Source: a virus. Taken from it: a DNA stretch of 64,000 nt. Both the position numbers and the translations under genes were made by a program. Below are positions 11,021 to 57,567 of the stretch, one piece after another. The notes beneath the pieces are model-generated. The model saw only the letters and a list, made by a program, of their open reading frames with translations. It made no database searches and had not been told where the DNA came from. How positions within the stretch are numbered: position 1 is the stretch's first letter; every line of letters begins with the position of its first letter. The stretch is taken from positions 39,390 through 103,389 of IMG/VR virus record IMGVR_UViG_3300006175_000002; one strand, given 5' to 3'.

Positions 11021-11097
11021 CGCGACTCCTTACTTCGACATTGGTGCGCAAGAGATCTGCGCACCCGACAGGGCGCGCTGATGGAGGGGGTGGCGGG

Positions 11098-14244: not shown

Positions 14245-14247
14245 CGG

Positions 14248-15699
14248 TCATGCCCCCTTCGGCGGTTTCGGCAACGCGTTCGCGTACTGGTCAAGCTTCT
14301 CCGCCAACTCGCGGGCCTGAGCAGGCGTCAGGGACGACATCCACCCCTGCTCCCGCTCGTCCTGTGACATCGGATCCCACGGCTTATCGCCGCGCTCATG
14401 GGCGGTGACACGAATGATCGGCTGGTCGCCGGTGGTGTCGAGGTGCATGTGCAGATCAGTCGGGTCCATGTCTAGGTCCCGCTTTTCCTTCACGACCCGG
14501 CGGAGCCGTTTCTCATCCACGCTCGATGCTGGGATATGCGGGGCGAGGAGGGCGAGGAGGTCCTTGTAGGTGATCGGTAGTTCCTCGCCGTCGATATCCA
14601 TCTTGTCGCCGAGTTCGATCCGGTTCCGTTCGGCGTAGTTCTGGATCAGTTCGGCAGCGCGGGAGTGTTTCGTCGGCTTCGTGATGGTGGGTTTCTCACC
14701 CGACTCAGCAATCGTGGCAAGGTCGCGGAGGTGGTCGGCGGCCTGGCGGGCGCCTTTCGCGTCGAGGTTGGCCGTCGATGGCGTCGTTGATCCGCTGGTG
14801 GTTTCGACACCGATTTCGGGGGCATCGTCGTCGTAGTTGAAGATGTGCAGATCAACGGGGGTGTTGCCGGTTTCGATGCGGTGGCTGGCGTGGTAGGTGA
14901 TACCGGAATGATTCGCCCGACCGCTGGTGTATCCGAGCGCATCATGCACACCCGCGTCGACGGGGATCCATCCGTGCCAGTACTTCTGGCCCGGCTTCGG
15001 GATCCGGTCCCCTTCCGCCTTGATTAGGGTGGCCGCCGCGTTCTTCTTCTTGACCTTGTGGCCCTTACCCCACGCCGCCGTGGCCGCCGACAGGGCTGTC
15101 TGCTCGGCAGAGATTCGGCTCTCGACGGCCTTCAGCGCGGCAACGGCCCCGACCCGGCGGCGAGCCATTGTGGCCTGCGTGTGGGCGGTCGCGTTGGCTT
15201 TGCCCGCTTCGGCGTCGAGCGCGGCGACCCGGGCGGCGAGTTTCGCCTGTCGGGCTTTGAGGTGGGCCATGGTGACGGCGATACGCAGGATCGCGGCGGC
15301 GGCAGCCCGTTTCGCCGGCGACATGTGCCGCATGCTGTTCGGGATGCCGTACTGTTTGCGGGCGGCTTCCCGGGCGGCGTGGGAGTCGGCGTAGCCGCTG
15401 TGTGCGGCATCGTCGCGGGCGAGCCGGTCAGCGACCTCGCCGCCCTGGACGGCGTCGTCGTAGCGGGACTGGGCATCGTGCTGGCGGCGTTCCCGCCCGC
15501 GGCGCTGCGACGTTTCGGACGTGGTGGTAGTGGTACCACCAGTGGTCCACCGGCCGGCGGCGCGGGGTTCGGCGAGGTTGAACCCGTACTTGAGGAGCGT
15601 GTCACGGGCCTGCTCCGCGGTGGTGCGGTCAGCGGATTTGGTGAGCACTGTGAGGTAGGCGATGTACTCGTCGGGGTCGACGTTGGTTAGGACAGCCAC
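14248..15699 (-). CDS. multidomain protein, probable capsid-packaged cargo
   Basis: Same N-terminal YIAYL..LTKSAD...EQAR..LLK motif; FN..EPR..GRWT and YWHGW motifs. Confidence 0.7.
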   Translation of the reverse strand: MAVLTNVDPDEYIAYLTVLTKSADRTTAEQARDTLLKYGFNLAEPRAAGRWTTGGTTTTTSETSQRRGRERRQHDAQSRYDDAVQGGEVADRLARDDAAHSGYADSHAAREAARKQYGIPNSMRHMSPAKRAAAAAILRIAVTMAHLKARQAKLAARVAALDAEAGKANATAHTQATMARRRVGAVAALKAVESRISAEQTALSAATAAWGKGHKVKKKNAAATLIKAEGDRIPKPGQKYWHGWIPVDAGVHDALGYTSGRANHSGITYHASHRIETGNTPVDLHIFNYDDDAPEIGVETTSGSTTPSTANLDAKGARQAADHLRDLATIAESGEKPTITKPTKHSRAAELIQNYAERNRIELGDKMDIDGEELPITYKDLLALLAPHIPASSVDEKRLRRVVKEKRDLDMDPTDLHMHLDTTGDQPIIRVTAHERGDKPWDPMSQDEREQGWMSSLTPAQARELAEKLDQYANALPKPPKGA

Positions 15700-18600: not shown

Positions 18601-19472
18601 CCGCCAGCGCGGCCGGTGGAGTCCATGTCGTCGGGTCCGCCGTAGATGACCGGGCCACGGTTCCGGTGGATGAGTCGGTCCCCGACCTTCCACCCCGACC
18701 GGATCTGCGTATCCCGGGCAGCATGCCCCGTCAGCTCGGGCGTTGCCGGCTTGGCTGCTGCTTCCAGCCGCGCGGCGAGCGCCCCGGCCCGGGTGTGGAT
18801 CTCGTCGCCCGGCTGGCTCCGACGCGGCCCCTGCAACCGGGCCAACGCCTCCCGAACCGCAGTCCTGTCCTCGTCGGACATCGCCCGCCAGTCCGGGCCG
18901 GTCAACGCCTCCATGGGCCGTATCGCGCTGTACGGGTTGCCGCTCCACGAATGGGTCGCCGCTTCCCTCGCCCGCTCGATCCGGGCCGACTGGCCACCAG
19001 CAGCGACCGCGGCGCGGGACGCGTCCCGCGCCGCCCGCTCCTCCGGGCCGGTCCCCGAGCCGTGCCCGGGTCGGCCGATGAAGTGCGACCCGCCTACGCC
19101 CGGCGCTTCCGGCTTGTGCTCGAACGCGTGGTACCCCGAGTCGAACTGGATCCCGACCGTTTTCGATCCCCGGCGGGTCATCACGCCGCGGCCCAGTTCG
19201 GGGTGATGCACCTCGAACGGGTGCGTCAGCTTCGCCGGCCCGACGTAGATCCACCCGTGGATGTAGCCCTTCGGACCGACTTTGATCAGATCAGCGGTGA
19301 CCGTCTTCACCCACGTCGGGTACGGCAACTCCAACCCGAACGCGTCGCCCTCACCAGCCCACTCCGACCACGCCGCCCGGCCCAGCCCACCCATCTTCGA
19401 CAGGGCAGGCTCCCGCGCCGACCAGTCAGCGCGCAACTCCTGGTACACGGCCAGCAGCGACGTGTCAGTCAC
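15687..19472 (-). CDS. large multidomain (polyvalent) protein
   Basis: GGAGGG SD; LIKVGPKGYIHGW; SH3-like, winged-helix-like, GrpE-head-like and HeH-like segments. Confidence 0.7.
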   Translation of the reverse strand: MTDTSLLAVYQELRADWSAREPALSKMGGLGRAAWSEWAGEGDAFGLELPYPTWVKTVTADLIKVGPKGYIHGWIYVGPAKLTHPFEVHHPELGRGVMTRRGSKTVGIQFDSGYHAFEHKPEAPGVGGSHFIGRPGHGSGTGPEERAARDASRAAVAAGGQSARIERAREAATHSWSGNPYSAIRPMEALTGPDWRAMSDEDRTAVREALARLQGPRRSQPGDEIHTRAGALAARLEAAAKPATPELTGHAARDTQIRSGWKVGDRLIHRNRGPVIYGGPDDMDSTGRAGGGSAHHVEFDDGSGGMVSADMLSGYVPPGAAPKKPETPMARPRKYTNAQKLRIWDAMPPEERNRWLGLGKGPEDITPDVFPPGLPRELTHTVPRTPTPAEHYDRLHAMSSRDEARQYVAGIKGKELQALADHLSVSRGPVGQRREGIVHATVGARLDSAAMRGGNWLERLPPPATTVPVEQLKHGNYAEVVGEDQYGKPITLRGYVSQPTGVRIGARGRKKRDAVAVQVTETPGGANGWRGVAYVAPGTHVTPLSATRSTAEVKDRVRAAYDARPKAPGGWVGLADLRDDLGDLNRGEVDAALGELAREPGVRVAPVDNTRALRSRDRAAAVRLGDSDRHMIAMGRGNTAPTPGIQPLTRSGVEPETDAHGTALVPGDTVTIATTLHNRTDQQATVLDIGTARVGGHHLATVRFADGTTEQVLPGNVVRARSVESAYLANLSREMEADPRFTQPLRGKPATSEVLRTLAGAQRGRGYEAAVLQQEARRHRGTPLGDRLSAAATEVELLRRGNASPELLDRVMPTPAPAAPVVSPRMEAEALRVHAAARQRALDAGLPAAGSTSRRHHTPAGPVGTGQGATTAEWQRRLEQQQQVDEMRARADQLAATPAVASEVTRAAEDRILAMDRPGAPTHIRETAAAIRERRTPTVSAEDAARTRQAHIDRARAVGGVVAEAHELVNHGASPQALRARITAHGNRVGVDTTHLATLADDPPTLLAAADHMATQAGLERVGSAGEVVPFNRGAHDPFGQPLREGSQVEIVRPGHVATLPGGERVPVSRATVQPAGTPDVPARVAIAPRGRRPAAVRAAETPPSPAGPVQYQVVQVNNRGQTTAVLGHAGSEEEALALRQHHIDRINGGPENQRRRERRMPIVDAAHDIKIEERVPGQGQRLDPITAPKPTKLGPTEAAQEALQHLRAGGDTETTLKALPVAALRELARLHGIVGTLGGRDEVKRMKKPDLVREMTPWLS

Positions 19473-19514
19473 CAGCGCACCCTCCGGCCGTGATGGAAAG
19501 ATTCGATCATTGCG

Positions 19515-20711
19515 TTACTTATGGCCGCGTTCCATTGCGGCGTGTGTGGCCGGGTAGAACCCGAGGGCCCCCTTGTGGCGCAGGTTGCAGAACCCCTTGG
19601 CCTGGTCCGGGCGCATGTGCTCCGCCGCGATCGCCACGCACCGGTCGAAGTCGCCGTCCGTGCCCCACCCGATTCGGGCTGCGCCTTCGCCGTGCTCGTA
19701 CCAGCGGATCAGATGCCGGGCCCGGTACTCGCCCACGTCACCCTCGTGGTCTTTGGTGAGCAGGGCGCGGCGGGCCAGCTCCTCCACGAGCTGGATGCCT
19801 TTGGGGGTCAGGAACTGGCCGTCTGCGACCTTGTCGGCGTGCTGCTCGTGGTGCAGGGCGTGTTGTAGGTTCTTCGCGGCTTCCTCGACGGTGATCCCGG
19901 CGGCGTCGGCGGCGGCTTGCAGGTCCTCGATCGTGATGTGCCGGTGGTCGTCGTGTCCGTTGTGCGGCATGTCGCAGCCGCAGGTAAGGCACTTGTTGAT
20001 CGGCGCCGCGGGTAGCAATCTAAGGATCTTCCCGAGATCGTCACCAAGCTCCGGGCGCAACGCCGGATTGTCAGCCAAGTGCGCCGGATCCCACCACACG
20101 AGGGCTTCGATCCGGTCCCGGTCCGGGTCGTCCGGGTTCGTCACGTGATCCCGGTCGCCAAAGATCGGCACGTCCGCCTCATGCGGGATCGTGAGGACGT
20201 AACCGTGGTACACGCCGTTATCGCTGACCCACTCCCCGCCCGGCGTGCCCTTCGGCACAGGGCAGCCCGTCTCCTCCGCCCACTCGCGGCGAGCAGCGTC
20301 GATCGGCTTCTCCCCGGGGTCTAGTCGCCCACCGGGGAACTCCCACGTCCCCGCGGCCGGGTCCTCGTCGCCGTCCTCCGGCAGGGCGCGCTGAAGCATC
20401 AGAACCCGGCCCGTGTCGGCGGCGCGCACAGCCAGGCCTGCCGCGTCGGGGGTCTTCCCCGCCTTCGTCGCTGGCTTGTCCGAACCGGCACCACCCATGA
20501 TTTCCTGTGCCCGCTGGTGGAACTCGTCGTCGTCGCCGTCGATGTCCACGTAGTGCAGGTTGTAGTCCGACTTCGCCCCCCGCGGGTGGAACGGGCCGTC
20601 AAGGTGCCGCTGCGACCACTGATCCTGCCACGTGGCAAGCGCGGCGAGCCGTTGGCGTACGTCGTCAGGCGGCGGCACAGGGGGTGTGGTGTGGCGTTTC
20701 TTCACAGCCAT
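19515..20711 (-). CDS. NUDIX hydrolase domain protein
   Basis: Nudix box WEFPGGRLDPGEKPIDAARREWAEETG; GGGAGGG SD, ATG 20711. Confidence 0.85.
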   Translation of the reverse strand: MAVKKRHTTPPVPPPDDVRQRLAALATWQDQWSQRHLDGPFHPRGAKSDYNLHYVDIDGDDDEFHQRAQEIMGGAGSDKPATKAGKTPDAAGLAVRAADTGRVLMLQRALPEDGDEDPAAGTWEFPGGRLDPGEKPIDAARREWAEETGCPVPKGTPGGEWVSDNGVYHGYVLTIPHEADVPIFGDRDHVTNPDDPDRDRIEALVWWDPAHLADNPALRPELGDDLGKILRLLPAAPINKCLTCGCDMPHNGHDDHRHITIEDLQAAADAAGITVEEAAKNLQHALHHEQHADKVADGQFLTPKGIQLVEELARRALLTKDHEGDVGEYRARHLIRWYEHGEGAARIGWGTDGDFDRCVAIAAEHMRPDQAKGFCNLRHKGALGFYPATHAAMERGHK

Positions 20712-23700
20712 TTCACACCCTCCCAGTCGGAGCCGAGGAGGGCCAGCTTGCCGGGCCACGTGTCGTCGCGGCCGGCGCCGGCGGGTCGGCCCAGTTGGGA
20801 AATCTCGAACGGTGTGACGTGCTCACCCGCGTCGATCCTCGCTAGGAGGGCTTTCGCTTCCCGCCGTTCGGGAGTATCGGGCGACGAGTCGAGCGCATGC
20901 ATACCGATGGCTGTATGTGCGTCGTCGTAGAACTCATAGCTTCCCAGGCTTTCGCCGTTGGTCGTGACGGTGTAGTTGCCGTCCTTGTCGAAGTCGACAT
21001 GGTAGTCGTGCGAACGGTGAGGAGCGATGGCTTGGACGAGACGATCCCGGATTGAGCTGGGGACCTTGCCGTCGCGCCACGTGTACCCGGCTCTCGACCA
21101 GGCGTAGCCTCCAACATCAATGTCGGCGCGGAGTTCGATCCGCTGGATGCCGGATTCGCGGTACCAGTCTTCGAGCTGCCGGTTGAAGCTCTGCGCGAAT
21201 CCTTGCCCACGAGTGTCGGCGCTGACCTTGAGCAGTACGTGGGTGGCGAACAGGTTCCCGTCCTCGTCCCGGCCGATGGTCCGCACGGCGTGGCCGATCT
21301 GCTGGCCGGTGTGGTCGTGAATGGACAGGTCGGCCTCAAAGTACCCATCGTCGGCGGCGAGTTTCTTCAGCTTGACCGACAGTCCACCGTGGACGCCTTC
21401 AAACACGTTCTTCGCGGCGTCGAGTGCGGCGGGGTCGGTGACCTCCTTACCGTTGGCGCTGGACACGTCGTCGAGGAGGTCTTTGGCTAGTTTCTTCTTG
21501 CCGTCTTTCGCGGCTTGCGGTGCCCTGTGCCTGCCCGCACCGTGCGTCTTGTTGGGTGCGATCCCGGCGGCGTGCGGGAATGTGCGTTCCTTCCCGTCCG
21601 GGAATATGACCTTGATGCGGGTTTTCGTGACCCCGGTGACGTGGCCCTTCCCGAATCCCTTGTGGTCGATGGTGGTGCCGACGGCGGTCGGGCCGTGCCA
21701 TACCCAGCCGTGCGACCAGGGGTGCTCTTTCCAGTCTCGCGGGCCCGGTGGCAGCCGCCCTTTGTCCAGGTCGGCGCCGGCTATCTTGTTCGCTGGGTCG
21801 GCGCCGTGGTGGAACTGCCACACATGCGTCTCATCCCACGGCCCACCGTCGGCATCGACGGTGCCGACGTAGGCGCGTACCGGCTGCCCGTTTTCGCGGG
21901 CGGCGAGGGTGCGGTGGTGCCCGTCGATGATTTTGATTTTGTCGCCGCCGGGTTCCTGGACCGCAACGACGGGCTTGACGTCGTTGCCCTTGCGGAGTTG
22001 CTTCGCGAAGTGCTTGACCCGCGCCTTGTCGTGGCTGGCAGCCCACCGGTCGATGTCGTCGAAGTCGATGCTGTCCAGCGGCACATCGACCGGGCCGGAC
22101 CACTGGGCGCCCTTCATCCAGCCGAGCGCTTTCGGCGGGTAGTTCTCCCGCATCTGCTGCGTCACCGCAGCGCCCGGGTCGGGCTCGTCGTCCTTGGCGG
22201 CCTTCGTGACCAGCCACGTCCGCAGCGCGTTCGCGCCGCGGGTCGCCGCAGTCAGAATGTCCTTCAACAGCCCCATCAGCCAGCTGCGCTGCGCTTCGGC
22301 CCGCTCGTCGGCGAGGTCGGCCAGCACCAGCGCCAGCGCCGCGTTCGGGTCGTCGTCGTTCAGGGCGCGACGGATCGCCTGCGCGTCCTGGGCCCGCTGG
22401 TCCGCGGCGGCGAGCTGCTCAGGTGTGGGAGTGGTGTCGGCGTGACGGAGTTGGATCGCCTCGACCTCGGCGGGGCTGGCCAGCCGATACGCCAGCCGGC
22501 ACCGGCAGCGCGGACCGCCCTCGCACACGGTAGCGTCGGCGCCGAACCCGCCCTGGCCGGGCATGCCGGGCAGCGTGTCGGCGGTGTGGAGCATCGTGGA
22601 CCAGGTGTCGCACAGGTCGCACGCGTCGGGTCGGGCGTGCCACTCGATGACGATGTTGTCGGGGTTGTCGTGGGCGCCGATCGTGGCGAGCCCGTACCCC
22701 ATCTCGTACGCCTGCGCGACGGTGCCGGCGTACAACCCGAACCGGCCGTCGAGCCCATCAACCCAGCCCGGCCCGTCGCCGGTGGCTTTGGTCGCCCACG
22801 CGGTGCGCTGGGTGGCCCGGCCGGCGTCGACCAGGGCGTGACCGGTACCGAGCCGCAACCCCTCGTGGATGCTCGAGCGGAGCAGCGCCACGGCGGCGTC
22901 GATGAACCCGGGCGTGGACAGCGACCCGTCTCCGACCTGCGCGGCGAGGTCGTGGAGACTGTTGATGACCTGCTGCTGCGTGGCGGCGAGCGCGGTGTCC
23001 CGGCGTTGGCGCTGGCCGGCGTCCTTTACCACCATCCGAGCCTTGGCCACGTCACCGTCGGCGCGGAGCGTGTCGAACACGTCGGCGGGTAGGTGCCGGT
23101 TTACCCACCCGTTCAGGCCAGCACCTTTGGTAAGGCGGTGGCCGATGAGGTCCAGCTCCCGGAGTGCGGCGGGCACGTCGACCGTGGTGACGAGGCGCGG
23201 GCCGCGGTCGAACGCGGCCTTGACCTGCTCGACCGGCTCGTCGTCTTCGTAGAAGGTGCCGAGGTCGGCGCCCTTGGCCAGCAGCGCCCGCTGCACATAC
23301 CGGTCGGCCGCCTTGTTGATCGGCTTACGGTCCAACGGCGAGTCCGGATCCTGATGCGCCAGGACTGGTTTCGGCAACGGCTTCGGATGCGCCGGCAGCA
23401 TCTGCCCACCCGCCGCCGCCTGCGCACCGGCGTGCGCCGGTGTCGGCGCGCCCCCGCCGGGACCTTTCGGCCCGTTCGGACCCTTCGGCTTCGGCTTGCC
23501 CCCGCCGCCGCCCGGCTTGCCCGGACCACCCGGGCCGCCACCGAACGCGGGCGGCGCACCCGGCACCACACCCGCAGCGGCCTGCATCGCGTTCGCCGGC
23601 GGTGCCCCGACCGGCGCACCCGTAGACATGTCGATAGACCCGAGCGGCGTAATGCCCGTCGCGGTGAAGTACACCGGCTCGCTGGTCATCGGAATTCCCC

Positions 23701-25234
23701 ACGGCTGGTGGCCGCGGATAACTCGCGCCTCATCAATGCTAACCAGACCGTGCGTCATTTCGTTGACGAGTACCTCCACCGTGGCGGCCTCGTCCTCGCC
23801 TTCCTCCAGCCCTTCCCAATGCCATTGCATGTCGGGTTGGCCCATGTGCTCACGGATCGCGTAGTCGAAAATGTTTGCTTTCAACCACTTCAGCAGCGGC
23901 TTCAACGCCTTCCGCTCGTTGATTTTCTCGCTGGCTTTCGCGATCTGCGACGCCGCACCCATCGCTGACTTCGACCCCGATGTGGAGATCCCCAACTCCA
24001 TCGGCATCACGTCGAACGCCATACACACCTGCGTCATGACGATCTCGTCGAACTGGTCAGCCAGCGGTGTCGGCCTGATCGGGTCGATTTTCGACCCACC
24101 CGGAATCACGATGATCTTATGTTTCCACGCGGGGTCGCCGGCCATCGCGTTCAACGCGTCCTGCAACTCGCGGCACTGGTTCGGCGTGGAGTTCGGATCC
24201 CCGGTCGACAGGAAAATCCCCGGCGTCGACCCCTGCGAGTAGTAGTCGAGCTGCCACTGTTGGCGTTGCAGACCGGACGTGATCGGTACCAGCGCCTGCT
24301 CGATCAGCGACAACCCGTACGGCGTCCACGAGCGGGGCGTGAACGGCAGGTACATCATCTGGTCGGCGCGGTACTCAGTCGTCAACGCGTCTTTCATGTC
24401 CTTGACGTCTTCGCCCATCCACGACGTCATCAGGTCAACGCGGGGTACCCCGTACTGGTAGATCTGCCATGCCGGGTTCGGTGGCTGCGGGATCCCGCCG
24501 CGCAGGTCCAGCATCGGCCGCACAATGTCGCCGGAGATCAGGCACAGCGCGCCGAGGTTCGACCCGGGAATCCCGCGGGCCTTGCCCCGCTGCCGGGACG
24601 GTTGCAGGTACAACGACAACGCGTCCACCACGAAGATCTCTTCGAGGAGCGCGGACAGCCACGACTCAAACCCGTGGTACTTGCCCGGGTCGGGGCGATT
24701 GAAGAACCGCTTCACCGGCCCGCGGCGCTCGTCGAACTCTTTCCGGGCCGCCCGGTCGCCGCGCATCGCTTTCTCGGCGTCCTTTGTGGGTACCACGTCC
24801 CACTCGATCGCCAGGATTTCCTGGATCCGCAGCTGAATGCAGGCACGGGCGACGGAGTACGCATCCGCCATGATCCGCATCTGGGAGAACGACGCCAGTT
24901 TCAGCCCCTCGTCGCCGGGCTGACCGTGGGGCATGTTCCACGACGTGGGGTAGGTGAACCGTCGCGGTTCGGGCCGGTCCTCGCCGGGTGGGGGCTGGTC
25001 GATCGGCTGGGGCCGCATCGGGGCCAACGGCCCGAACGTGCCGTTCAGGAACGTGGCCGGGTCGCGGGGCAGGGCGGCGTTGACCCGACCGGTGGACCAC
25101 TCGGCGTACGACGCGATCAGCGGGCTCGCCGGCCCGCCCAAACCGGTACCGGTGGGTGGGCCCCCGAACGCGCCGGTAGGGTTCGCGACGGTGGTCGGCA
25201 GCGCGCGGGCAACGGCGGCGAGGTTACGTGCCAC
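20702..25234 (-). CDS. portal protein fused to MuF-like, ParB-like and GNAT-like domains
   Basis: Portal motifs (PYGLSLIEQAL, DEIVMTQVCMAFDVMPMELG, SIDEAR); ACDLC...CRCRL (MuF); IIDGHHRTLAA (ParB/Srx); RGQGFA...GGYAWSRAGY (GNAT-like). Confidence 0.85.
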   Translation of the reverse strand: MARNLAAVARALPTTVANPTGAFGGPPTGTGLGGPASPLIASYAEWSTGRVNAALPRDPATFLNGTFGPLAPMRPQPIDQPPPGEDRPEPRRFTYPTSWNMPHGQPGDEGLKLASFSQMRIMADAYSVARACIQLRIQEILAIEWDVVPTKDAEKAMRGDRAARKEFDERRGPVKRFFNRPDPGKYHGFESWLSALLEEIFVVDALSLYLQPSRQRGKARGIPGSNLGALCLISGDIVRPMLDLRGGIPQPPNPAWQIYQYGVPRVDLMTSWMGEDVKDMKDALTTEYRADQMMYLPFTPRSWTPYGLSLIEQALVPITSGLQRQQWQLDYYSQGSTPGIFLSTGDPNSTPNQCRELQDALNAMAGDPAWKHKIIVIPGGSKIDPIRPTPLADQFDEIVMTQVCMAFDVMPMELGISTSGSKSAMGAASQIAKASEKINERKALKPLLKWLKANIFDYAIREHMGQPDMQWHWEGLEEGEDEAATVEVLVNEMTHGLVSIDEARVIRGHQPWGIPMTSEPVYFTATGITPLGSIDMSTGAPVGAPPANAMQAAAGVVPGAPPAFGGGPGGPGKPGGGGGKPKPKGPNGPKGPGGGAPTPAHAGAQAAAGGQMLPAHPKPLPKPVLAHQDPDSPLDRKPINKAADRYVQRALLAKGADLGTFYEDDEPVEQVKAAFDRGPRLVTTVDVPAALRELDLIGHRLTKGAGLNGWVNRHLPADVFDTLRADGDVAKARMVVKDAGQRQRRDTALAATQQQVINSLHDLAAQVGDGSLSTPGFIDAAVALLRSSIHEGLRLGTGHALVDAGRATQRTAWATKATGDGPGWVDGLDGRFGLYAGTVAQAYEMGYGLATIGAHDNPDNIVIEWHARPDACDLCDTWSTMLHTADTLPGMPGQGGFGADATVCEGGPRCRCRLAYRLASPAEVEAIQLRHADTTPTPEQLAAADQRAQDAQAIRRALNDDDPNAALALVLADLADERAEAQRSWLMGLLKDILTAATRGANALRTWLVTKAAKDDEPDPGAAVTQQMRENYPPKALGWMKGAQWSGPVDVPLDSIDFDDIDRWAASHDKARVKHFAKQLRKGNDVKPVVAVQEPGGDKIKIIDGHHRTLAARENGQPVRAYVGTVDADGGPWDETHVWQFHHGADPANKIAGADLDKGRLPPGPRDWKEHPWSHGWVWHGPTAVGTTIDHKGFGKGHVTGVTKTRIKVIFPDGKERTFPHAAGIAPNKTHGAGRHRAPQAAKDGKKKLAKDLLDDVSSANGKEVTDPAALDAAKNVFEGVHGGLSVKLKKLAADDGYFEADLSIHDHTGQQIGHAVRTIGRDEDGNLFATHVLLKVSADTRGQGFAQSFNRQLEDWYRESGIQRIELRADIDVGGYAWSRAGYTWRDGKVPSSIRDRLVQAIAPHRSHDYHVDFDKDGNYTVTTNGESLGSYEFYDDAHTAIGMHALDSSPDTPERREAKALLARIDAGEHVTPFEISQLGRPAGAGRDDTWPGKLALLGSDWEGVKWL

Positions 25235-25256
25235 GGGCTACTGCCTCCCCTCGAGG

Positions 25257-46574: not shown

Positions 46575-47345
46575 TTATGCCAGTGACTGGTGATATGCGA
46601 ACTTGACCAGGCCGGCGTCGGCGACGATCCGGAGCGCCTCGATCGGCTTGTCATTGTTGTCGTGGGTGACGCGCCACGCTTCTATCACGACCGACCCGGC
46701 CGGCCGGTCCAGAATGGTCAGCTCGGCGTCGGTACCGACGCGGGCGGCGACTTCCTCGGTGAACCAGGCCGGTTGGATACCGACGGTGGTCATGTACGCG
46801 TACACGCCGCCGAGGATGTCACCTGACCGGGCTAGGGCGGTGTCCTTGACCCGTTCGTAGGGCATGAACGCGCGCTGCAACTGGGCTGGGCCGACGCCGT
46901 CGATGGTGGGGTTGCGGTACCGGACGACGACTCTGGTGCCGGCGTCGACCTTGAGGAGTTCAGCGATGTGGGAGTCGGCGTGTTCGATGCGTACGTCGTG
47001 GACGCGGCCGTGGCCGGTGAGGTTGTGGGCGCGTAGCGCGGTTTCCCAGGGGCCGAGGGTGGCGTGCTCGCGGTGCGGGTCCATCGCGGCGAGCATGTGT
47101 CGGGCCACGGTGACCTGGACTCGCAGGGGTGCGGTGAAGATGCCGGTGCTGCGCCGTGACACGACGAGTCCTTCTCGTTTGAGGATGTCGAGGGCGCGGC
47201 CGATGGTGGTGCGGTTGACGTCGAAGCGGTCGCTGAGTGTGGCTTCGGTGCCGATGTGGGTGTTCGGGGGGAACAGGCCGGTGGTGAGTTCGGCGCGGAG
47301 TTCGCCGGCGATTTGCTGGTAGCGGGGGTGGTGCACGTTGCTCAT
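46575..47345 (-). CDS. GntR/HutC-family regulator with UTRA domain (KorA/TraR-like)
   Basis: PRYQQIAGELR..TEATLSDRFDVNRTTIGRAL..L..EGLV; UTRA-like C-terminus. Confidence 0.9.
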   Translation of the reverse strand: MSNVHHPRYQQIAGELRAELTTGLFPPNTHIGTEATLSDRFDVNRTTIGRALDILKREGLVVSRRSTGIFTAPLRVQVTVARHMLAAMDPHREHATLGPWETALRAHNLTGHGRVHDVRIEHADSHIAELLKVDAGTRVVVRYRNPTIDGVGPAQLQRAFMPYERVKDTALARSGDILGGVYAYMTTVGIQPAWFTEEVAARVGTDAELTILDRPAGSVVIEAWRVTHDNNDKPIEALRIVADAGLVKFAYHQSLA

Positions 47346-47467
47346 CGGGCCTCCCTAGTTGACGGTTGTCGATGACGATCGTACTGGGTTTTGTGTCCGC
47401 AAACCGATCTGGGGGTGTCCCATGCAGGGGACATTCCGGCCGTGGGGGTCGCGGCGGGGTTTTAGGG

Positions 47468-47775: not shown

Positions 47776-47918
47776 GGTGCCCGGTGCGTAGGGGTTCGAT
47801 ACTTCCATTGCTAAGGACGAGGTCGCAGGTTCGATCCCTGCCAGTCCCCGGGAAACCAGGGCTGTAGCTCAGCGGTAGAGCGCGTAAAGACTCGAACGCC
47901 GCCTAGATCTCGGGCATC
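47776..47918 (+). ncRNA. YrlA-like Y RNA 3 with permuted tRNA-like module
   Basis: Same terminal stem; GCAGG-TTCGATC-CCTGC then TAGCTCAGCGGTAGAGC. Confidence 0.8.
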
Positions 47919-47936
47919 TTTCACTCTCCACATTCG

Positions 47937-47967
47937 ACGCTCCTCCCCTAGCTGGAGGAGCGTTTTT
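47937..47967 (+). terminator. terminator-like hairpin that also sequesters the Ro60 SD
   Basis: ACGCTCCTCC-7nt-GGAGGAGCGT-TTTT immediately followed by the GTG start. Confidence 0.65.
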
Positions 47968-49602
47968 GTGTCGAGGTTCAACACTGTGGACAAGCGGGCG
48001 CCGCGGGAGCGGGCCACGTCGCCGATCACGACGGAGGCGACGGCGTCGGGTGTGACGCATGAGGGCGGGCCCGGGTTCGCGCGGAACGCCAAGTCGGAAC
48101 TGTTCTTGCTGGCCGTGTCCAATATGGTCGGTGAGGACACGTTCTACGAGAAGGCCGGCGACCGCGACGGCCGGTACGCGGAGCTGGTGCGCCAGGTGGC
48201 GGTGGCCGACCCGGTGTGGATGCTGGGGTTCCTGGGCTGGCTGCGTAGTGAGGGCAACATGCGGTCGGCGTCGCTGGTCGGCGCGGCGGAGGCGGTCCAC
48301 GCCCGGCTGGCGGTCAACCGGACCATTGAGGCGGGTGGCCACGTCACGGTGGTCGAGTCGGGGAACCGTCAGATGGTGGCTGCGGTGTTGCAGCGCGCGG
48401 ACGAGCCGGGCGAGTTCCTCGCCTACTGGCGGCAGACGTTCGGCAGGAACCTGCCGAAGCCGGTGAAGCGGGGCATCGCCGACGCGGTCCGTCGCCTCTA
48501 CAACGAGTACGCGCTGCTGAAGTACGACACCGCCTCGCACAGGTTCCGGTTCGGTGACGTGATCGACCTCGTCCACCCGTCGCCGTCGGCGCCGTGGCAG
48601 GGGGACCTGTTCCGGTACGCGCTGGACCGCCGCCACGGCCGCAACAACGAGGTGCCGGGGTTGCTGTCCATGGTGCGCCGGCAGGCCGAGTGGCGGGCCA
48701 ACGCTGACGCGTCGCCGCTGCCGGTGGAGGGACTGCTCGACCCGGAGCACATTCGCGGTGCTGGGCTCACGTGGGAGGACGTGCTGTCGCTGCTCGGGTC
48801 GAAGGTCGACAAGGCGCAGCTCTGGTCGGCGCTGATCCCGTCAATGGGGTACATGGCGCTGCTACGGAACCTGCGCAACTTCGACGAGGCCGGCGTGCCC
48901 GACGAGATCGCCGCTGAGGTGGCGGCGCGGCTCGCGGATCCGGAGCAGGTCGCGAAGTCGCGGCAGTTGCCGATGCGGTTCCTGTCGGCGTTCCGGTCGG
49001 TGCCGTCGCTGCGGTGGGGGCAGGCGCTCGAGGTCGCGTTGGGTCATTCGTTGGCCAACGTGCCCCCACTGCCCGGCCGCACGTTGGTCCTGGTCGACGT
49101 GTCCGGGTCGATGGACAACCGGATGTCGGGGAAGTCGGGTCTGTCGCGGGTCGACGCGGCGAAGGTGTTCGGTGCGGCGGTCGCGTTGCGGGCTGAGCAG
49201 CCGACGCTGGTGTGGTTCAACAACGCGTCGGGGCAGGTGCCGGTGCCGAAGGGAATGGCGTTGCTGCGCCTGGTGCAGGTGCTGCCGTCGGCGATGGGTG
49301 GCACAGCGACCGCGGCGGCGGTGCAGCGATGGTTCGACCGCCACGATCGGGTTGTGATCGTCACCGACGAGCAGGCCGGGAACCACTTCGGCGGATGGGG
49401 GTCGGGTCCGGTGGATGCGGCGGTGCCGGCGTCGACGCCGATCTACACGTGGAACCTCGCCGGGTACGAGCGGGGCCACTTGCCGTCAGGGTCGGGTGCG
49501 CGGCACACGTTCGGTGGGCTATCCGACGCGGCTTTTCGGATGATTCCGCTGCTCGAGGCGGGCCGGAACGCGGCGTGGCCGTGGCAGGCCGTCGCAAGTT
49601 AG
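47968..49602 (+). CDS. rsr: Ro60/Rsr (TROVE + vWA domain) RNA-binding protein
   Basis: THEGG.G, ELFLLAV, TFYE, TWE..LS, MGYMALLRNLRNF, vWA MIDAS LVDVSGSM, GGT, IVTDEQ. Confidence 0.93.
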   Translation: MSRFNTVDKRAPRERATSPITTEATASGVTHEGGPGFARNAKSELFLLAVSNMVGEDTFYEKAGDRDGRYAELVRQVAVADPVWMLGFLGWLRSEGNMRSASLVGAAEAVHARLAVNRTIEAGGHVTVVESGNRQMVAAVLQRADEPGEFLAYWRQTFGRNLPKPVKRGIADAVRRLYNEYALLKYDTASHRFRFGDVIDLVHPSPSAPWQGDLFRYALDRRHGRNNEVPGLLSMVRRQAEWRANADASPLPVEGLLDPEHIRGAGLTWEDVLSLLGSKVDKAQLWSALIPSMGYMALLRNLRNFDEAGVPDEIAAEVAARLADPEQVAKSRQLPMRFLSAFRSVPSLRWGQALEVALGHSLANVPPLPGRTLVLVDVSGSMDNRMSGKSGLSRVDAAKVFGAAVALRAEQPTLVWFNNASGQVPVPKGMALLRLVQVLPSAMGGTATAAAVQRWFDRHDRVVIVTDEQAGNHFGGWGSGPVDAAVPASTPIYTWNLAGYERGHLPSGSGARHTFGGLSDAAFRMIPLLEAGRNAAWPWQAVAS

Positions 49603-53142: not shown

Positions 53143-54090
53143 TTACTCCTCGCCGGTCACGATATCGGCGTCGACCGTCTTACCGGCAGCCTTACGGGGC
53201 TTCCCGGCGGCGGCGCCTGTGGTGGTTGCCTTGACCCGCGGGCCCGCTGAAGCGATCCTCTCCCACCTCGTGACCTTGAACCGGCCGAAACCCTGCGACC
53301 TCGACGCACCCAACCCGTTCTGCTGGGCAACCAGCCAGAACCTCCGCCACTCCTCGTCGGAGTAGTCGTGAATCGACCGGACAGTGAAATCGATGACCGC
53401 GCCGACCACGTACTCCTCGTACTGGATGCCCGACCCGCGGAACGTGTGCACGAACCTTTGGTTCACCGCCGTCGGCTCGAGGACCGCGTTCAGGCCACCG
53501 CGGAGCGGGTTCTCCTGGTCGGCGAATGTGTAGAGGTGCAGCCGGTCCTCAACAACGAACAGTGTCTCCGCGAAGAACGACAGCAACCCTTTCTTGTTGT
53601 TGTTGCCGTACCCGCGGGCCGACACGAGGTTAGTATCCGCCGCGATCGAGCAGGCTTCTTTCAGGCACGCCTTGAGTTGCCGGCCCTCGACGTAGAGTTG
53701 ACCCCTCGCCGCGCTGGGGAGTCCTTCCTCGGCTTGCTCCTTCGCGTGGGCGATCGCGGCGGGGGTGCGCTTGTCACGCTTGAACTGGTTCAGGTGCTTG
53801 TCGGCTTCCTTCGCGACGGCTTCGTCGGCGGTGGCACCGGTTTCGACCATCGTTTCCGCGACGGCCTGGCGGACGAGGTCGTCACGCTGGAGGCCGAGCT
53901 TCGTGCGGAGCCACCCCTCAACGACGTTCTGATCGACGGGGATCCCGCCGGCGATGATGCTACACACGAGTTGGCCGGCGTACTCGTGGTAGACGTCGGT
54001 TTCGTACTTGTCGAATGCGCCTTCGATGGCGTATTCGAGGTTGAAGACGGGCAGTGCGGGTGCGGGTTTCCGTGCGACTGCGGTGGCCAC
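53143..54090 (-). CDS. solo Cas7/RAMP-superfamily protein (315 aa)
   Basis: GAAAGGA SD, GTG 54090; LYVEGRQLKACLKEA resembles the Cas7 P.IPGSS.KG..R helix; C-terminal glycine-rich loop GLGASRSQGFGRF; no other cas genes in window. Confidence 0.8.
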   Translation of the reverse strand: MATAVARKPAPALPVFNLEYAIEGAFDKYETDVYHEYAGQLVCSIIAGGIPVDQNVVEGWLRTKLGLQRDDLVRQAVAETMVETGATADEAVAKEADKHLNQFKRDKRTPAAIAHAKEQAEEGLPSAARGQLYVEGRQLKACLKEACSIAADTNLVSARGYGNNNKKGLLSFFAETLFVVEDRLHLYTFADQENPLRGGLNAVLEPTAVNQRFVHTFRGSGIQYEEYVVGAVIDFTVRSIHDYSDEEWRRFWLVAQQNGLGASRSQGFGRFKVTRWERIASAGPRVKATTTGAAAGKPRKAAGKTVDADIVTGEE

Positions 54091-54104
54091 GGGTGTGTCC
54101 TTTC

Positions 54105-55645
54105 GGGGTTGGGTAGTTGCCGGACTGGCTGGGCTTGTCAGTTTCGGCCCGGCGGGGGGAGGCGTCGGTAGGGCTTGTCGGACCTTGGGTCTGGGTCGGC
54201 AAGGCTTGTCGGGGTCGGGTGGACTTTGTGCCACGGAGCGGACAGGTTAGTCGGCGCGGGGGCCGGTTGGGCTTGTCGGGCAGTCAGGAGGGTGCCGGTT
54301 GCGTAGGCGGCATGGGTCGGGTAGTCGAGAGGGAAGGTTGACAGGTAGTGGCGTGGGTTGTCGGAAGAGACGTGAAGTTGGGTGATCTGGCCTGGCTTGT
54401 CAGAAGTGTTCAAGGGTCGTATTGGCTCGTCAGGCTTGGGGCGTAAGGGACAGTTCCGGATTGGATGGGCTTGTCGGGAAACGGATTGAGATGAACGTGG
54501 TTCTGGCCTGGATTGTCAGTGTGCGGCCGGGAGGAACAGAACGGGGGGCGGGGTTGTCAGTAGGGGGCCGGATTGAGTTTGGGCTGGGATGTCGATGTTG
54601 GCTGGTCGCGGCATGGATCGTCGGCGTGAGGCTGAGGTAAATCAGGGCAGGGTAGTCGCATGGGATCGGCAAGGCGCGGATCGTGGCATGGGTAGTCGAT
54701 GAGGGGCGTACGCGAGCGAGGGTGGGGCTGTCAGACACGGGATGTTCATGACCTTGTTCGAGGGACGGGTAGTCGATTGAGGCGGGAAGAACTCAGGGTG
54801 AGGGTGGGCTGTCAGGTACGGAATGGCAGGCGCAGATGGGTGCGGCATGCTTATGGCTTGTCAGATCGGGCAAGAAGCGTTCTCCATGGCACGGGTTGGC
54901 TTGTCGGACGTGACGTGAGCTGGGAATGACTCGGGCCGGGTTGTCAGGGGTGTCGCGTGTAGAAGCGGACGGGCATGGATTGTCGGGTAAGAACAGTGCG
55001 CGGCATGACGCGGGTAGTCAGACTTAGGGGGGGAGAACCAAGGGGAGTTCTGGATGGTCAGCTTCGGCCGGGGTTGAACGCGATCAGGACTGTCGGTTCG
55101 GGGATGGAAATTGGGCGGAGCCAGAAGCGGGGCGGGTTGTCGGAGTGTGGAGTGGTGTACGGGTCCTGGGATGGTATGTCAGTTGAGGGTAGGAAGCGCC
55201 ACGGCTTGGATCGGGTAGTCAGAGCCGGTAGGTACGGGTGGGTTCGGGTTGTCAGATTCGGGCCGCGTCGGCTGGCGGTGGCATGGCTTGTCAGCTTTCG
55301 GAGTGGCGGGGAACAGGTAATCGCGGCATGGCTCGTCAGGTGAGGGTGGGAAGGATCGGGTAGTCAGAATCGGTAGGTGCGGCGCCGAGCCGGGTCGGGT
55401 TGTCAGAGGATGTGGAGTGATGCGGGGCATGTTGGGTCGGGTAGTCAGATCAGACGCGGGTCGTACTTGATGGAGTAGGTGTGGGCTGTCAGAAGCGGAC
55501 TGGGCGGGGAGTCCTGATCTGGGTTGTCAGATTCGGGCGGTAAGGCTCTGAGCTTGTCTTGGGTAGTCAGAAAAGGGCAGGAATGAACGAAGACCAGGGG
55601 TGTCAAGTTTGGGGTGAGGTAGAGCGTACTGGCTCGGATTGTCAT
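54105..55645 (-). repeat. non-coding array 1: ~40 degenerate units (25-49 nt, mean ~39) with 5-nt periodicity
   Basis: + strand GGNTW-GTCRG anchor at 54137, 54177, 54208, 54250 ... 55566, 55602, 55641; G/GG recurring every 5 nt before each anchor. Confidence 0.88.
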
Positions 55646-56196
55646 TACGCCGCCGCCGCCATCGAATGCCACATCCGCGCCAACTGCTCATCAGTGAACA
55701 GATCCGCCACCGTCTCCGCGCCCCGCCGCGACTTCAACTTCTTCGCCACCGCCCGCAGGAACGCCGCGTTCAACGCGTTCTCCGCCGCCTGCGCCTCATA
55801 ATCGGTCGCGACCGACTCCAGATCAGAAACAGTCAGCGCCGACAGTGGCTTACGGGCCCCGTCGATGACGTACCGCACGTTGAGGAACGACTCAATGCCT
55901 CCCATGTCGCCGGCCTGGGCGCGGCTTGTGGCCGCGGCGAAGTCGTGGCGGCCGTTGACGACGCGGGCGTGGCCGCGGCGGCTGCGTTCAATGGTTGCGA
56001 TCGTGTCGCGGAGCAGGTTCACGGCTTGCATGTGGAGCCAGCCGTGGAGGAGGTCAGGGTCGGTGGTGTCGAGGGTACGGACGAGGTTCTCGGCGATGGT
56101 GCGGTCGGGCACAGTGCCGCGGATGGTGAGGGCGTTGTCGATGTGGACGCGCATGTCGGCGGCGTAGTTACGTTGTTCTGGGGTGTCGGGCGGCAT
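55645..56196 (-). CDS. helical hypothetical protein (183 aa) between the two arrays
   Basis: AAGGA SD, ATG 56196; normal codon usage unlike the flanking arrays. Confidence 0.75.
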   Translation of the reverse strand: MPPDTPEQRNYAADMRVHIDNALTIRGTVPDRTIAENLVRTLDTTDPDLLHGWLHMQAVNLLRDTIATIERSRRGHARVVNGRHDFAAATSRAQAGDMGGIESFLNVRYVIDGARKPLSALTVSDLESVATDYEAQAAENALNAAFLRAVAKKLKSRRGAETVADLFTDEQLARMWHSMAAAA

Positions 56197-56204
56197 GTGA
56201 CGTC

Positions 56205-57205
56205 CTTGGGTCGGGGTGGTCGGGTGGGAGGGGAGGCGACGGCGGGTACTGGATAGTCGGGTGGGGACTGGAACGGTTCGGATTGTCGGGGTGTGATGGT
56301 TGAGGTTGGATCGTCGGGATGGTTCTGGAGTGGATAGTCGGATGTGGTCTGGCTCTGGCTCGGAGCGTCGGGTTCGGGAGGTTCGGCTGGTGGTGGACTG
56401 TCTGACTGGGGTGGACAAAGGGCATTGGCTTGGACTGTCGGTTGGTGGTTTGCGCCGGGGTGGATTTTGCTGGTGAGTCAGAATTTCGGTGTGAGTTGCG
56501 GGGCTAGGGCTGGCAAGGGTAGTCAGGGTGTGGCAGGGCAGTTTGGGCAAGATCCGGGATGTCGGATTCGGGTGGGTGGGTGGGCATGAGTTGACAAGTC
56601 GGGGTGGTGCTGGCCGGGTGTTTGGGCCGGGCCGTTGAGGGCGAGGTTGGCTTGTCGGTCCGGGAGAGATCGGGACTGGGGCCGGTTAGTCGGGCGGGGC
56701 GGGTTGAACATTCGCGGCTGGGTGTGGGTTGTCGGACCGGGCCGCGGAGGGAAGGCGAGGTCTGGCTTGTCGGGCTGGTTCTGGCGTAGACACGGGCTGG
56801 ATCGTCGGTTCTTTCGGTGAGGGGTGATTCGGGTCGTCAGAGTGTGGGGGATCGTGGTCAAGTAGTGGCTTGTCGGGGCCTGGATGGGGGCTTGGCTTGG
56901 CCTGTCAGCGGGGGGTTACGAATCGGGAGTGGAGGGGTCTGTCGAATTGGGAGGAAGCAGGTACGGCATGGCTTGTCGGGCAGGTGGGCGCTGCGGCGGC
57001 TTGGTTCTGTCTTGTCAGTTTCGGTGAAGGAGGCGTCGGCAGGGGCTTGGGATGTCAGTTTCGGTTCGGAAGTACCTGGGATGGATTGTCGGTACGGCCA
57101 GTTGCGGATAGGTAAGTCGCGGCTTGTCAGATCCGGGTGCGTGCAGGCAGAGAATGGCTCGGGGTGTCAGTTTCGGTCCAGGAGTTCGCGGAGTTGGCTT
57201 GTCAG
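56205..57205 (-). repeat. non-coding array 2: ~28 units with the same grammar
   Basis: GTCRG anchors at 56219, 56256, 56285, 56313 ... 57126, 57166, 57201. Confidence 0.88.
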
Positions 57206-57208
57206 CGC

Positions 57209-57412
57209 TCACCCTAGCGATCCTTCTACGACATGGCAACCCCGCTCGTCGTGGTCCAACGCGATGGTGACAAGAAGGTGCACGGCGTAGCTGACCGTCA
57301 TATTTTGCGCATCTGCGTACGCGGCGACGCGGGCGTACACAGCCGGATCCCACCGCATCGTCTGCATATGCAGGTGACCGGCGGCCGGTGAGGGGAGGCG
57401 TTGTTTCGTCAT
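57209..57412 (-). CDS. ribbon-helix-helix (Arc/CopG-like) protein
   Basis: MQTMRWDPAVYARVAAYADAQNMTVSYAVHLLV pattern; ATGA overlap. Confidence 0.6.
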   Translation of the reverse strand: MTKQRLPSPAAGHLHMQTMRWDPAVYARVAAYADAQNMTVSYAVHLLVTIALDHDERGCHVVEGSLG

Positions 57413-57567
57413 CGGCGCCGCCATTTTCTGGGGTAGCGGGTGTGCATGGTACGGATCCGGTCGTGGACCTTGTCCCAGTAGCGGTGCACGGCCAGGGCGA
57501 GGGGTTTCGCGTCGCCGGTGGCGTCGTAGTGGCGCATCGCGGCGAGGACGTCGGGCGGGGTGGTCAT
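57409..57567 (-). CDS. small hypothetical protein (52 aa)
   Basis: ATGA overlaps at both ends. Confidence 0.45.
   Translation of the reverse strand: MTTPPDVLAAMRHYDATGDAKPLALAVHRYWDKVHDRIRTMHTRYPRKWRRR

What the first reader, a model, noticed from the sequence alone, without database searches (positions are those of the whole stretch)
54105..55645. Grammar of array 1: short anchor plus pentamer register with hypervariable fill
Seen on the + strand: GGGGC GTAAG GGACA GTTCC GGATT GGATG GGCTT GTCGG (54438-54477) and GGTCT GGGTC GGCAA GGCTT GTCGG (54188-54212). On the gene strand each unit starts with CYGAC, then approximately WANCC, NNNCC, NNNNC... The register is tightest next to the anchor and often slips 1-2 nt distally. 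Anchor spacings of about 30, 35, 39-40 and 44-45 nt are common, and by eye no two units are identical. This is neither satellite decay nor CRISPR repeat-spacer structure. Inference: fixed bases are protein contacts (one subunit per 5 nt, versus 6 nt in canonical Cascade), and the variable bases encode a gapped, non-contiguous target.
Basis: partly seen in the sequence, partly recalled or inferred. Interest (0 to 1): 0.88.

Follow-up and report, generated by a model that had tools for sequence, protein, structure and literature searches.

The report
Phage VIPR guide array, C-lattice variant
The stretch is a non-coding array of about 40 short guide-like units next to a lone Cas7-like gene in a 103-kb phage, a C-based variant of the VIPR RNA-guided silencing systems first described in 2026, so it is real and interesting but belongs to a published kind.

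Summary
Array 1 (54091-55644) and a second array (56197-57208) are non-coding and C-rich/G-poor on the gene (minus) strand. They hold 61 non-identical units that start with CYGAC, and they show a real 5-nt period and no 3-nt period.

The downstream gene (53143-54090) folds like Cas7 (Csm3, Z 10.3). It belongs to a family of more than 870 metagenomic proteins. About 44 of 50 related viral loci carry the same kind of CCGAC-punctuated C-lattice array beside this gene, and 33 carry the same helical accessory gene.

This matches VIPR (Vipr + vap + vrRNA; bioRxiv 10.64898/2026.04.26.720920 and .720927), where one protomer binds each 5-nt repeat and only two bases per repeat pair with DNA, skipping every third target base.

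- **Family-wide code test:** of 20 models, only "NN = the two bases after the fixed C, 1-nt skip" beat shuffles. One guide matches the KVAEGWL codons of rival vipr genes.
- **Window guide at 55220:** it decodes to YENVALL in the motif-A region of a viral family-B DNA polymerase (46 of 107 hits; controls 9 or fewer).

It departs from canonical VIPR in several ways: nyC/NN instead of GGY/NN, bare (Y)GAC punctuation, no structured tail, and only 5-9 NN per unit. The transcribed strand and RNA ends are not shown. This scan found the same family earlier on other DNA.

The parts
53143..54090 (-). vipr-like gene: lone Cas7/RAMP-like protein, 315 aa, GTG start after a GAAAGGA ribosome-binding site
   Evidence: AF2 model pLDDT 71. 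Foldseek PDB best hits are Csm3 and type VII Cas7 at E 5e-5. VIA-align gives Z 10.3 to Csm3 9g9a_D, and the top 15 are all Cas7-class. Family of more than 870 proteins, no Pfam domain, invariant G-loop GASRSQG.G. Profile-profile against the SUSP1 Vipr family: E 0.0077, probability 5%, collinear over helix-1, thumb and G-loop.
54091..55644 (-). array 1: about 39 CYGAC-punctuated units, putative vrRNA guides, filling the whole gap between the stop of the accessory gene and the ribosome-binding site of vipr
55182..55220 (-). one clean unit of array 1: GAC then TA-CCC-GA-TCC-AA-GCC-GT-GGC-GC-TTC-CT-ACC-CT. Its NN string reads TA.GA.AA.GT.GC.CT.CT, i.e. the codons of Y-E/D-N/K-V-A-L-L
   Evidence: 46 of 107 returned IMG/VR matches lie in frame on YENVALLD(V/I)ASMHP of one roughly 1250-aa protein. 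Its C-terminal half matches E. coli DNA polymerase II (family B) at E 3.7e-5 over that region. Controls with the same dinucleotides reordered give largest clusters of 7 and 9.
55645..56196 (-). conserved accessory gene (vap-like), 183 aa, mostly helical, fold unknown
   Evidence: Homologues sit directly upstream of the array or vipr on the same strand in 33 related loci and in Microcystis phage Mae-JY09. AF2 pLDDT 89.7. No significant fold match. No similarity to SUSP1 vap1. Weak phrog_4604 hit.
56197..57208 (-). array 2: about 22 units of the same grammar
57209..57460 (-). small upstream ORF (83 aa) whose stop abuts array 2; function not established
Evidence: ORF only. No Pfam or PHROG hit.

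Best explanation
Array 1, with array 2, is the guide-RNA array of a phage VIPR-type system.

Shown:
- A lone Cas7-like protein gene, a conserved accessory gene and hypervariable 5-nt-lattice arrays travel together in many phages.
- The lattice has one strongly fixed C every 5 nt, a weaker pyrimidine before it, and two near-random bases after it.
- Units are punctuated by (Y)GAC.

Inferred from the published VIPR mechanism:
- The operon transcript, C-rich and unstructured, is coated by Vipr-like protomers, one per pentamer.
- Each protomer pair sequesters the n-y-C trinucleotide and presents the following NN.
- The NN strings pair with double-stranded DNA while skipping every third target base, so guides read codon positions 1-2 of conserved genes in rival mobile elements and silence them.
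- (Y)GAC probably marks unit boundaries or processing sites, giving about 60 mini-guides of 5-9 NN.

Candidate targets seen: a rival phage DNA polymerase B motif A (window guide at 55220) and the KVAEGWL motif of rival vipr genes (guide in relative L016).
For: - **Fold:** Cas7 class by Foldseek (E 5e-5) and VIA-align (Z 10.3), with domain order RRM strand, helical bundle, helix-1, thumb, G-loop.
- **Context:** complete 103-kb phage record with terminal repeats and a portal.
- **Conservation:** about 44 of 50 related viral loci have a C-rich array with about 2.5 CGAC per 100 nt beside the gene. A cultured Microcystis phage has one too.
- **Family logo (986 anchors):** the fixed C recurs every 5 nt out to +33 and -25, and anchor spacings peak at 5k+3.
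- **Hypervariability:** arrays do not align between relatives whose flanking genes are 86-88% identical.
- **Code test on 0.71 Mb:** only NN = the two bases after the fixed C with 1-nt skip is enriched, 20 hits against 3.3 +/- 1.8 (maximum 9 in 200 shuffles). The other 19 models are at chance.
- **L016 guide:** 8/8 NN on the vipr KVAEGWLK codons of five rivals, with skips on wobble positions.
- **Window guide 55220:** 46 of 107 hits in one polymerase B motif, against 9 or fewer for reordered controls.
- **G-loop alignment to SUSP1 Vipr:** the two G-reading residues are replaced (D177 to A, W178 to S) while the pyrimidine-pocket Arg179 is kept. This fits a lattice that keeps only the pyrimidine (with residue roles).
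- **RNA:** the C-strand RNA folds worse than shuffles (z +1.75) and has no Rfam family.
Against:
- Sequence homology to published Vipr is weak (hhalign probability 5%).
- The canonical GGY motif, 9-16 repeats and structured 3' tail are absent.
- In this window only about a third of units keep a clean lattice to their end, and 5-9 NN gives only 10-18 specified bases.
- Three other window guides gave nothing convincing: 9 scattered hits, 0 hits, and small clusters.
- No other window guide converges on the polymerase-bearing contigs.
- The family-wide enrichment rests largely on one guide, which also matches its own vipr at 7/8 NN.
- Two loci carry arrays inverted relative to vipr.
Confidence: 0.72

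Rival explanations
1. It is a VIPR array, but the functional RNA is the G-rich strand, antisense to vipr. It would read G-r-n/NN, i.e. the published NNNGG/NNNNG-type repeats, with GTC as the last trinucleotide of each unit.
For: All published vrRNAs are G-based, and NNNGG, YNNNG and NNNNG variants are reported. The geometry G1-g2-n3-N4-N5 fits the same lattice, and double-stranded targets are identical under both strand readings (my derivation). L027 has an array whose G-rich strand runs with the flanking genes.
Against: In SUSP1 the vrRNAs lie on the vipr strand. Here the C-rich strand is the vipr strand in about 44 loci, and the arrays fill the gene-to-gene gaps with no room for promoters. 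The G-reading residues D177 and W178 are not conserved, while the pyrimidine-pocket Arg is. Non-canonical cores that end in C (GAC/NN, CAC/NN) are already reported.
Confidence: 0.17
2. The arrays are not guides. They would be a Vipr-binding scaffold or sponge, or a long C-rich leader that controls expression of the operon (for example Rho loading on C-rich, G-poor RNA), with the variable bases drifting neutrally.
For: C-rich, G-poor unstructured RNA is what Rho prefers (established knowledge). The lattice in this window is sloppy and the units are short. Most tested guides found no target.
Against: Neutral drift does not explain why the two positions after the fixed C are the least biased. It does not explain why only that pair with a 1-nt skip gives matches. 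It does not explain in-frame matches to invariant motifs of vipr and a DNA polymerase.
Confidence: 0.07
3. The repeats act at the DNA level, as iterons, a partition or packaging site, or primase or translocase recognition sites (GTC on the + strand).
For: Strict single orientation and short anchors resemble polar DNA motifs. The array lies 7-10 kb from a genome end.
Against: Position relative to contig ends varies among relatives, while linkage to the Cas7-like gene does not. The 5-nt lattice with only one fixed base, and the hypervariability between close relatives, are unlike iterons.
Confidence: 0.03
4. The array is a translated proline-rich repeat protein.
For: C-rich sequence has few stop codons, and ORFs of 60-100 aa exist on the minus strand.
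Against: There is no 3-nt periodicity (lag 3 z -4.9). Unit lengths are not multiples of three. Frames are broken every 60-100 codons.
Confidence: 0.01

Closest known systems
Type II VIPR of Escherichia phage SUSP1 (Vipr + vap1 + four vrRNAs; bioRxiv 10.64898/2026.04.26.720920 and .720927)
   Same: Phage-borne. A lone Cas7-like RAMP plus one small accessory gene. Flanking non-coding tracts with a 5-nt period and two hypervariable bases per repeat. Arrays on the vipr strand. The 1-nt-skip code reads codon positions 1-2. Guides against other phages and other vipr genes.
   Different: The fixed letters are n-y-C, not GGY. There is no promoter, leader or pseudoknot tail per RNA. Units have 5-9 NN instead of 9-16 repeats. 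They abut each other, separated only by (Y)GAC, about 61 units in two arrays. The accessory protein is unrelated to vap1. Protein similarity is only at profile/fold level.
Non-canonical and alternative VIPR arrays (NNNGG, YNNNG, NNNNG repeats and 'staggered' arrays in 10.64898/2026.04.26.720920; GAC/NN, CAC/NN, WGT/NN, TGH/NN cores in 10.64898/2026.10.21.760802)
   Same: Shows that the fixed trinucleotide can differ from GGY, that it may end in C, and that tail-less abutting vrRNAs exist.
   Different: Those texts name no C-only lattice with GAC used once per unit as punctuation. The figures that would settle whether this family is among their seven types are not held here.
Csm3/Cmr4/Cas7 backbone of class 1 CRISPR effectors
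   Same: Best structural matches (Z 8-10). RRM core, thumb and glycine-rich loop. One subunit per short RNA step.
   Different: 6-nt step with one flipped base in CRISPR against a 5-nt step with three sequestered bases here. No cas operon, no repeats of 20 nt or more, no Cas6 or Cas5 partner.

Membership tests
VIPR | Lone RAMP protein with RRM core, thumb and G-loop, outside a cas operon | tested here: met
   Foldseek E 5e-5 and VIA-align Z 10.3 to Csm3, with the top 15 all Cas7-class. Neighbouring genes show no Cas families.
VIPR | Sequence homology to published Vipr (SUSP1 clade) | tested here: inconclusive
   hhalign of 26 against 26 sequences: E 0.0077, probability 5%, 141 collinear columns including helix-1 and the G-loop. 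HMM search of the SUSP1 genome found nothing.
VIPR | Encoded by a virus, in a minimal locus with one accessory (vap) gene | tested here: met
   Complete phage record. The accessory gene is conserved in 33 loci. Its relation to vap1-6 could not be tested beyond vap1, which shows no similarity.
VIPR | Flanking non-coding tract with 5-nt repeats in which fixed bases alternate with two hypervariable bases | tested here: met
VIPR | GGY/NN consensus on the vipr strand | tested here: not met
   The vipr strand reads n-y-C/NN and the opposite strand G-r-n/NN. Published work allows 'a related consensus'.
VIPR | 9-16 repeats followed by a conserved structured 3' tail | tested here: not met
   Units have 5-9 NN and abut at (Y)GAC. 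No Rfam hit and no excess structure. Tail-less 'staggered' arrays are published.
VIPR | Targets obey the 1-nt-skip rule, with skips on wobble positions | tested here: met
   Only this model is enriched. L016 guide on vipr at 8/8 NN. Window guide on polymerase B motif A, 46 of 107 hits against 9 or fewer in controls. The support rests on two guides.
VIPR | vrRNAs expressed and bound by Vipr | not testable with these tools
CRISPR array | Near-identical direct repeats of about 24-40 nt separated by unique spacers of similar length | tested here: not met
   The only shared element is a 5-10 nt anchor. The longest shared word is 15 nt, and Tandem Repeats Finder finds no array.

The most novel reading that the evidence does not exclude
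This is a distinct, very large VIPR branch in which the protein has lost both guanine pockets and reads only a pyrimidine lattice (n-y-C/NN) on the sense strand. Dozens of tail-less mini-guides would be cut at (Y)GAC from the operon's own read-through transcript. They would aim at catalytic motifs of rivals' replication genes and at rivals' vipr genes. That would be a new guide grammar and biogenesis route within VIPR.
Probability: 0.5. Interest if true: 0.62.

Novelty: new variant of a known kind. Interest (0 to 1): 0.5.

Why it matters
VIPR is a months-old class of RNA-guided DNA binders with a gapped code, and only the G-based type II system has been worked out. This family would extend that in several ways:

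- It is large (more than 870 protein clusters) and occurs in high-GC and low-GC phages and in one cultured cyanophage.
- Its lattice keeps only a pyrimidine, and its guides are packed head to tail in arrays of up to about 60.
- It would show how far the repeat code and guide biogenesis can vary.
- It would give natural sequence contrasts for the base-reading pockets (D-W replaced by A-S in the G-loop).
- It would offer very compact multiplexed guide arrays.

For phage biology it points to silencing of rivals' polymerase and vipr genes.

Tried and rejected
**Explanations I considered first and dropped**
- Promoter arrays: no sigma-70-like sites.
- TraB/FtsK recognition repeats: the 705-aa neighbour has no FtsK domain, only faint P-loop hits.
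- Iterons, Rho sponge, T7-type primase GTC sites and a translated repeat protein.

**Searches that found nothing useful**
- blastn of the locus against cultured phages: no match.
- Single-protein locus search: nothing.
- HMM of the family against the SUSP1 genome: nothing.
- Sequence profile against the PDB: nothing relevant.
- Accessory gene: no Pfam family and no fold match.
- Rfam: nothing.

**Target searches that failed**
- Window guides against 1.2 Mb of related phage DNA.
- Guide 54475: 9 scattered low-GC hits.
- Guide 54862: 0 hits.
- Guide 56563: clusters of 6 or fewer.
- No second window guide hits the polymerase-bearing contigs.
- Period-5 test after masking anchors was underpowered.

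**Tools unavailable**
- All 8 viral-collection scans are used.

Full report
**1. What is there**

The window is the last 64 kb of a complete 103,389-bp viral record with direct terminal repeats. It has 67% G+C and encodes a portal fusion protein and other phage genes.

Genes between 53.1 and 57.5 kb run on the minus strand. Two stretches there are non-coding: 54091-55644 (array 1, the finding) and 56197-57208 (array 2). Both are strongly C-rich and G-poor on the minus strand, with + strand GC skew of +0.42 and +0.47.

- **Periodicity:** G autocorrelation on the + strand peaks at lag 5 (z 6.1) and lag 10 (z 3.8) against dinucleotide shuffles. Lag 3 is negative. A coding control shows the usual lag-3 signal.
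- **Anchor logo:** aligning 64 units on the anchor gives CC-nnnn-C-Y-GAC-W-A-n-CC-r-nn-CC-nnnn-C.
- **Orientation:** the strict 15-nt pattern occurs 29 times in the genome, all on the minus strand and 28 inside the arrays, against 0 for the backwards control.
- **No repeat array in the usual sense:** none of 61 units is identical to another, the longest shared word is 15 nt, and Tandem Repeats Finder reports no array.

**2. The neighbours**

Array 1 runs from the stop codon of a 183-aa gene (55645-56196) to the ribosome-binding site of a 315-aa gene (53143-54090).

*The 315-aa protein.* It has no Pfam, PHROG or NCBIfam family, only faint Cas6/Csm4 hits at its glycine-rich C-terminus. It has more than 870 relatives in metagenomes, typically 222 aa and about 50% identical, with an invariant GASRSQG.G loop.
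- An AlphaFold2 model (pLDDT 71) matches Csm3, type VII Cas7 and Cmr4 by Foldseek (E about 5e-5).
- It matches independently by VIA-align (Z 10.3 to Csm3, with the top 15 all Cas7-class).

*The 183-aa protein.* It is mostly helical (pLDDT 89.7) and has no informative fold match.

**3. Comparative evidence**

A profile search found 50 related viral loci.
- In about 44 of them a 0.3-2.2-kb C-rich, G-poor stretch with about 2.5 CGAC per 100 nt lies directly upstream or downstream of the Cas7-like gene, on its strand. This includes relatives with 45% G+C and only 26% protein identity.
- In 33 loci a homologue of the 183-aa gene sits just upstream.
- The cultured Microcystis phage Mae-JY09 has the same trio.
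- Arrays do not align between relatives whose flanking genes are 86-88% identical, so they turn over fast.

Over 986 CGAC anchors from 39 loci, a fixed C recurs every 5 nt, at +3, +8 and so on to +33, and at 0, -5 and so on to -25. The base before it is mostly a pyrimidine, and the two bases after it are the least biased. Anchor spacings peak sharply at 5k+3: 28, 33, 38, 43, 48 and 53. The family unit is therefore GAC-NN-(xyC-NN)n-xyC.

In this window the punctuation carries one extra pyrimidine (CYGAC). Spacings of 40, 35 and 39 dominate, and the lattice is noisier.

**4. What it is**

After the fold result, a look-up of earlier notes of this scan named VIPR. I then read the papers.

VIPR systems consist of a lone Cas7-like Vipr protein, a small accessory gene (vap) and vrRNAs made of 5-nt repeats. 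One protomer binds each repeat. GGY is sequestered and NN is presented. NN strings pair with double-stranded DNA while every third target base is skipped. Natural targets are rival phages, satellites and other VIPR loci, and the outcome is transcriptional silencing. Variants with NNNGG, YNNNG and NNNNG repeats, tail-less 'staggered' arrays, and non-canonical cores such as GAC/NN and CAC/NN have been reported.

I located the reference locus in phage SUSP1 (KT454805.2, 27.6-29.3 kb). There the vrRNAs are G-rich on the vipr strand.

**5. Tests of membership and mechanism**

*Homology.* Profile-profile comparison of this family with the SUSP1 Vipr family gives a collinear 141-column alignment through helix-1, the thumb and the G-loop. 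Support is weak (E 0.0077, probability 5%). Homology therefore rests mainly on fold and locus architecture.

*The code.* I took 209 clean units from the relatives and searched 0.71 Mb of related phage DNA under 20 models: five choices of two positions within the pentamer, each with 0-3 skipped bases.
- Only 'the two bases right after the fixed C, one base skipped' exceeded order-shuffled guides: 20 hits against 3.3 +/- 1.8, with a maximum of 9 in 200 shuffles.
- Sixteen of those hits come from one guide in L016. It matches 8/8 NN on the K-V-A-E-G-W-L-K codons of vipr in five other phages, with all differences on the skipped wobble bases. It matches its own vipr at 7/8.
- Enlarging the database to 1.2 Mb kept the excess but added no second clear pair.

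*This window's guides.* I ran four exact scans of IMG/VR.
- Guide 54475 (16 specified bases): 9 scattered hits.
- Guide 54862 (18 specified bases): none.
- Guide 56563: no cluster above 6.
- Guide 55220, which lies inside the finding: 46 of 107 returned hits in a single roughly 1250-aa protein, in frame, on YENVALLD(V/I)ASMHP. That region aligns to the motif-A region of E. coli DNA polymerase II, a family B enzyme, at E 3.7e-5. The N-terminal part carries a DUF5906 NTPase domain.
- The same seven dinucleotides in reversed or permuted order gave largest clusters of 7 and 9.
- The phage itself and five relatives lack that protein.
- No other window guide hits those contigs.

I regard this as a plausible natural target, not a proven one.

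**6. Which strand?**

Double-stranded targets are the same whichever strand is the guide, so targets cannot decide this.

In favour of the C-rich sense strand:
- It is the vipr strand in about 44 loci, as in SUSP1.
- The arrays fill the gene-to-gene gaps with no promoter-like or terminator-like sites.
- The C-strand RNA is less structured than shuffles (z +1.75).
- In the G-loop alignment the residues that read G1 and G2 in SUSP1 (D177, W178) are Ala-Ser here, while Arg179 of the pyrimidine pocket is invariant. This fits a lattice that keeps only position 3 as C.

Against it:
- All published vrRNAs are G-based.
- Two loci have arrays inverted relative to vipr.

I put about 4:1 on the C strand.

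**7. Verdict**

The locus is best filed as a new variant of a known kind: a VIPR-type system with a C lattice, (Y)GAC punctuation, no tail, short units and very large arrays.

Earlier follow-ups of this scan reached the same family on other genomes. I re-derived the lattice, the punctuation and the code independently.

Still missing are RNA ends and strand, protein-RNA binding, and a database-wide target test.

Noticed in passing
window 47815-49602 (+): A 595-aa phage protein with TROVE (E 1.8e-19) and a weak Ro60 vWA domain, i.e. a Ro60/Rsr-like protein.
   Followed up: no
window 20702-25237 (-) and 19515-20822 (-): The portal domain sits inside a 1511-aa ORF, followed by a 435-aa NUDIX protein. 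Four further ORFs of about 490-1410 aa (6788-19514) have no Pfam family apart from a sub-threshold zinc-ribbon hit.
   Followed up: no
It shows only faint P-loop matches to VirB4 and EccC (E 0.013-0.09). A GntR/UTRA regulator lies at 46575-47354.
   Followed up: partly
L016:7926-7969 and L016:8100-8122: The last full unit before vipr in this relative matches the KVAEGWLK codons of five other phages' vipr genes at 8/8 NN. It matches its own vipr at 7/8; the one mismatch is the Lys/Arg codon. This could be rival targeting with self-avoidance, or autoregulation.
   Followed up: partly
L027:1850-2480 and L047:2151-2936: Arrays of the same grammar lie in inverted orientation relative to vipr. In L047 the array follows a gene on its own strand. 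In L027 it sits between two genes of the other strand with a 210-nt gap to vipr. Some arrays must therefore have their own promoter.
   Followed up: partly
L074 (Microcystis phage Mae-JY09, PP395641.1 37174-38850): A cultured cyanophage carries the accessory gene, the Cas7-like gene and a downstream CCGAC-punctuated C-rich array, all annotated as hypothetical or unannotated. It is a ready experimental model for this variant.
   Followed up: partly
L278:6052-9540 and about 45 other IMG/VR loci (L225-L327): A widespread viral protein of about 1250 aa fuses a DUF5906 NTPase with a divergent family-B DNA polymerase. Pfam does not detect the polymerase part. Host G+C ranges from 0.38 to 0.63.
   Followed up: partly
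window 56307-56352: The only tandem repeat that TRF reports in the locus is two 24-nt copies (82% match) at the vipr-distal end of array 2, where units are shortest. It may be a recent unit duplication.
   Followed up: no
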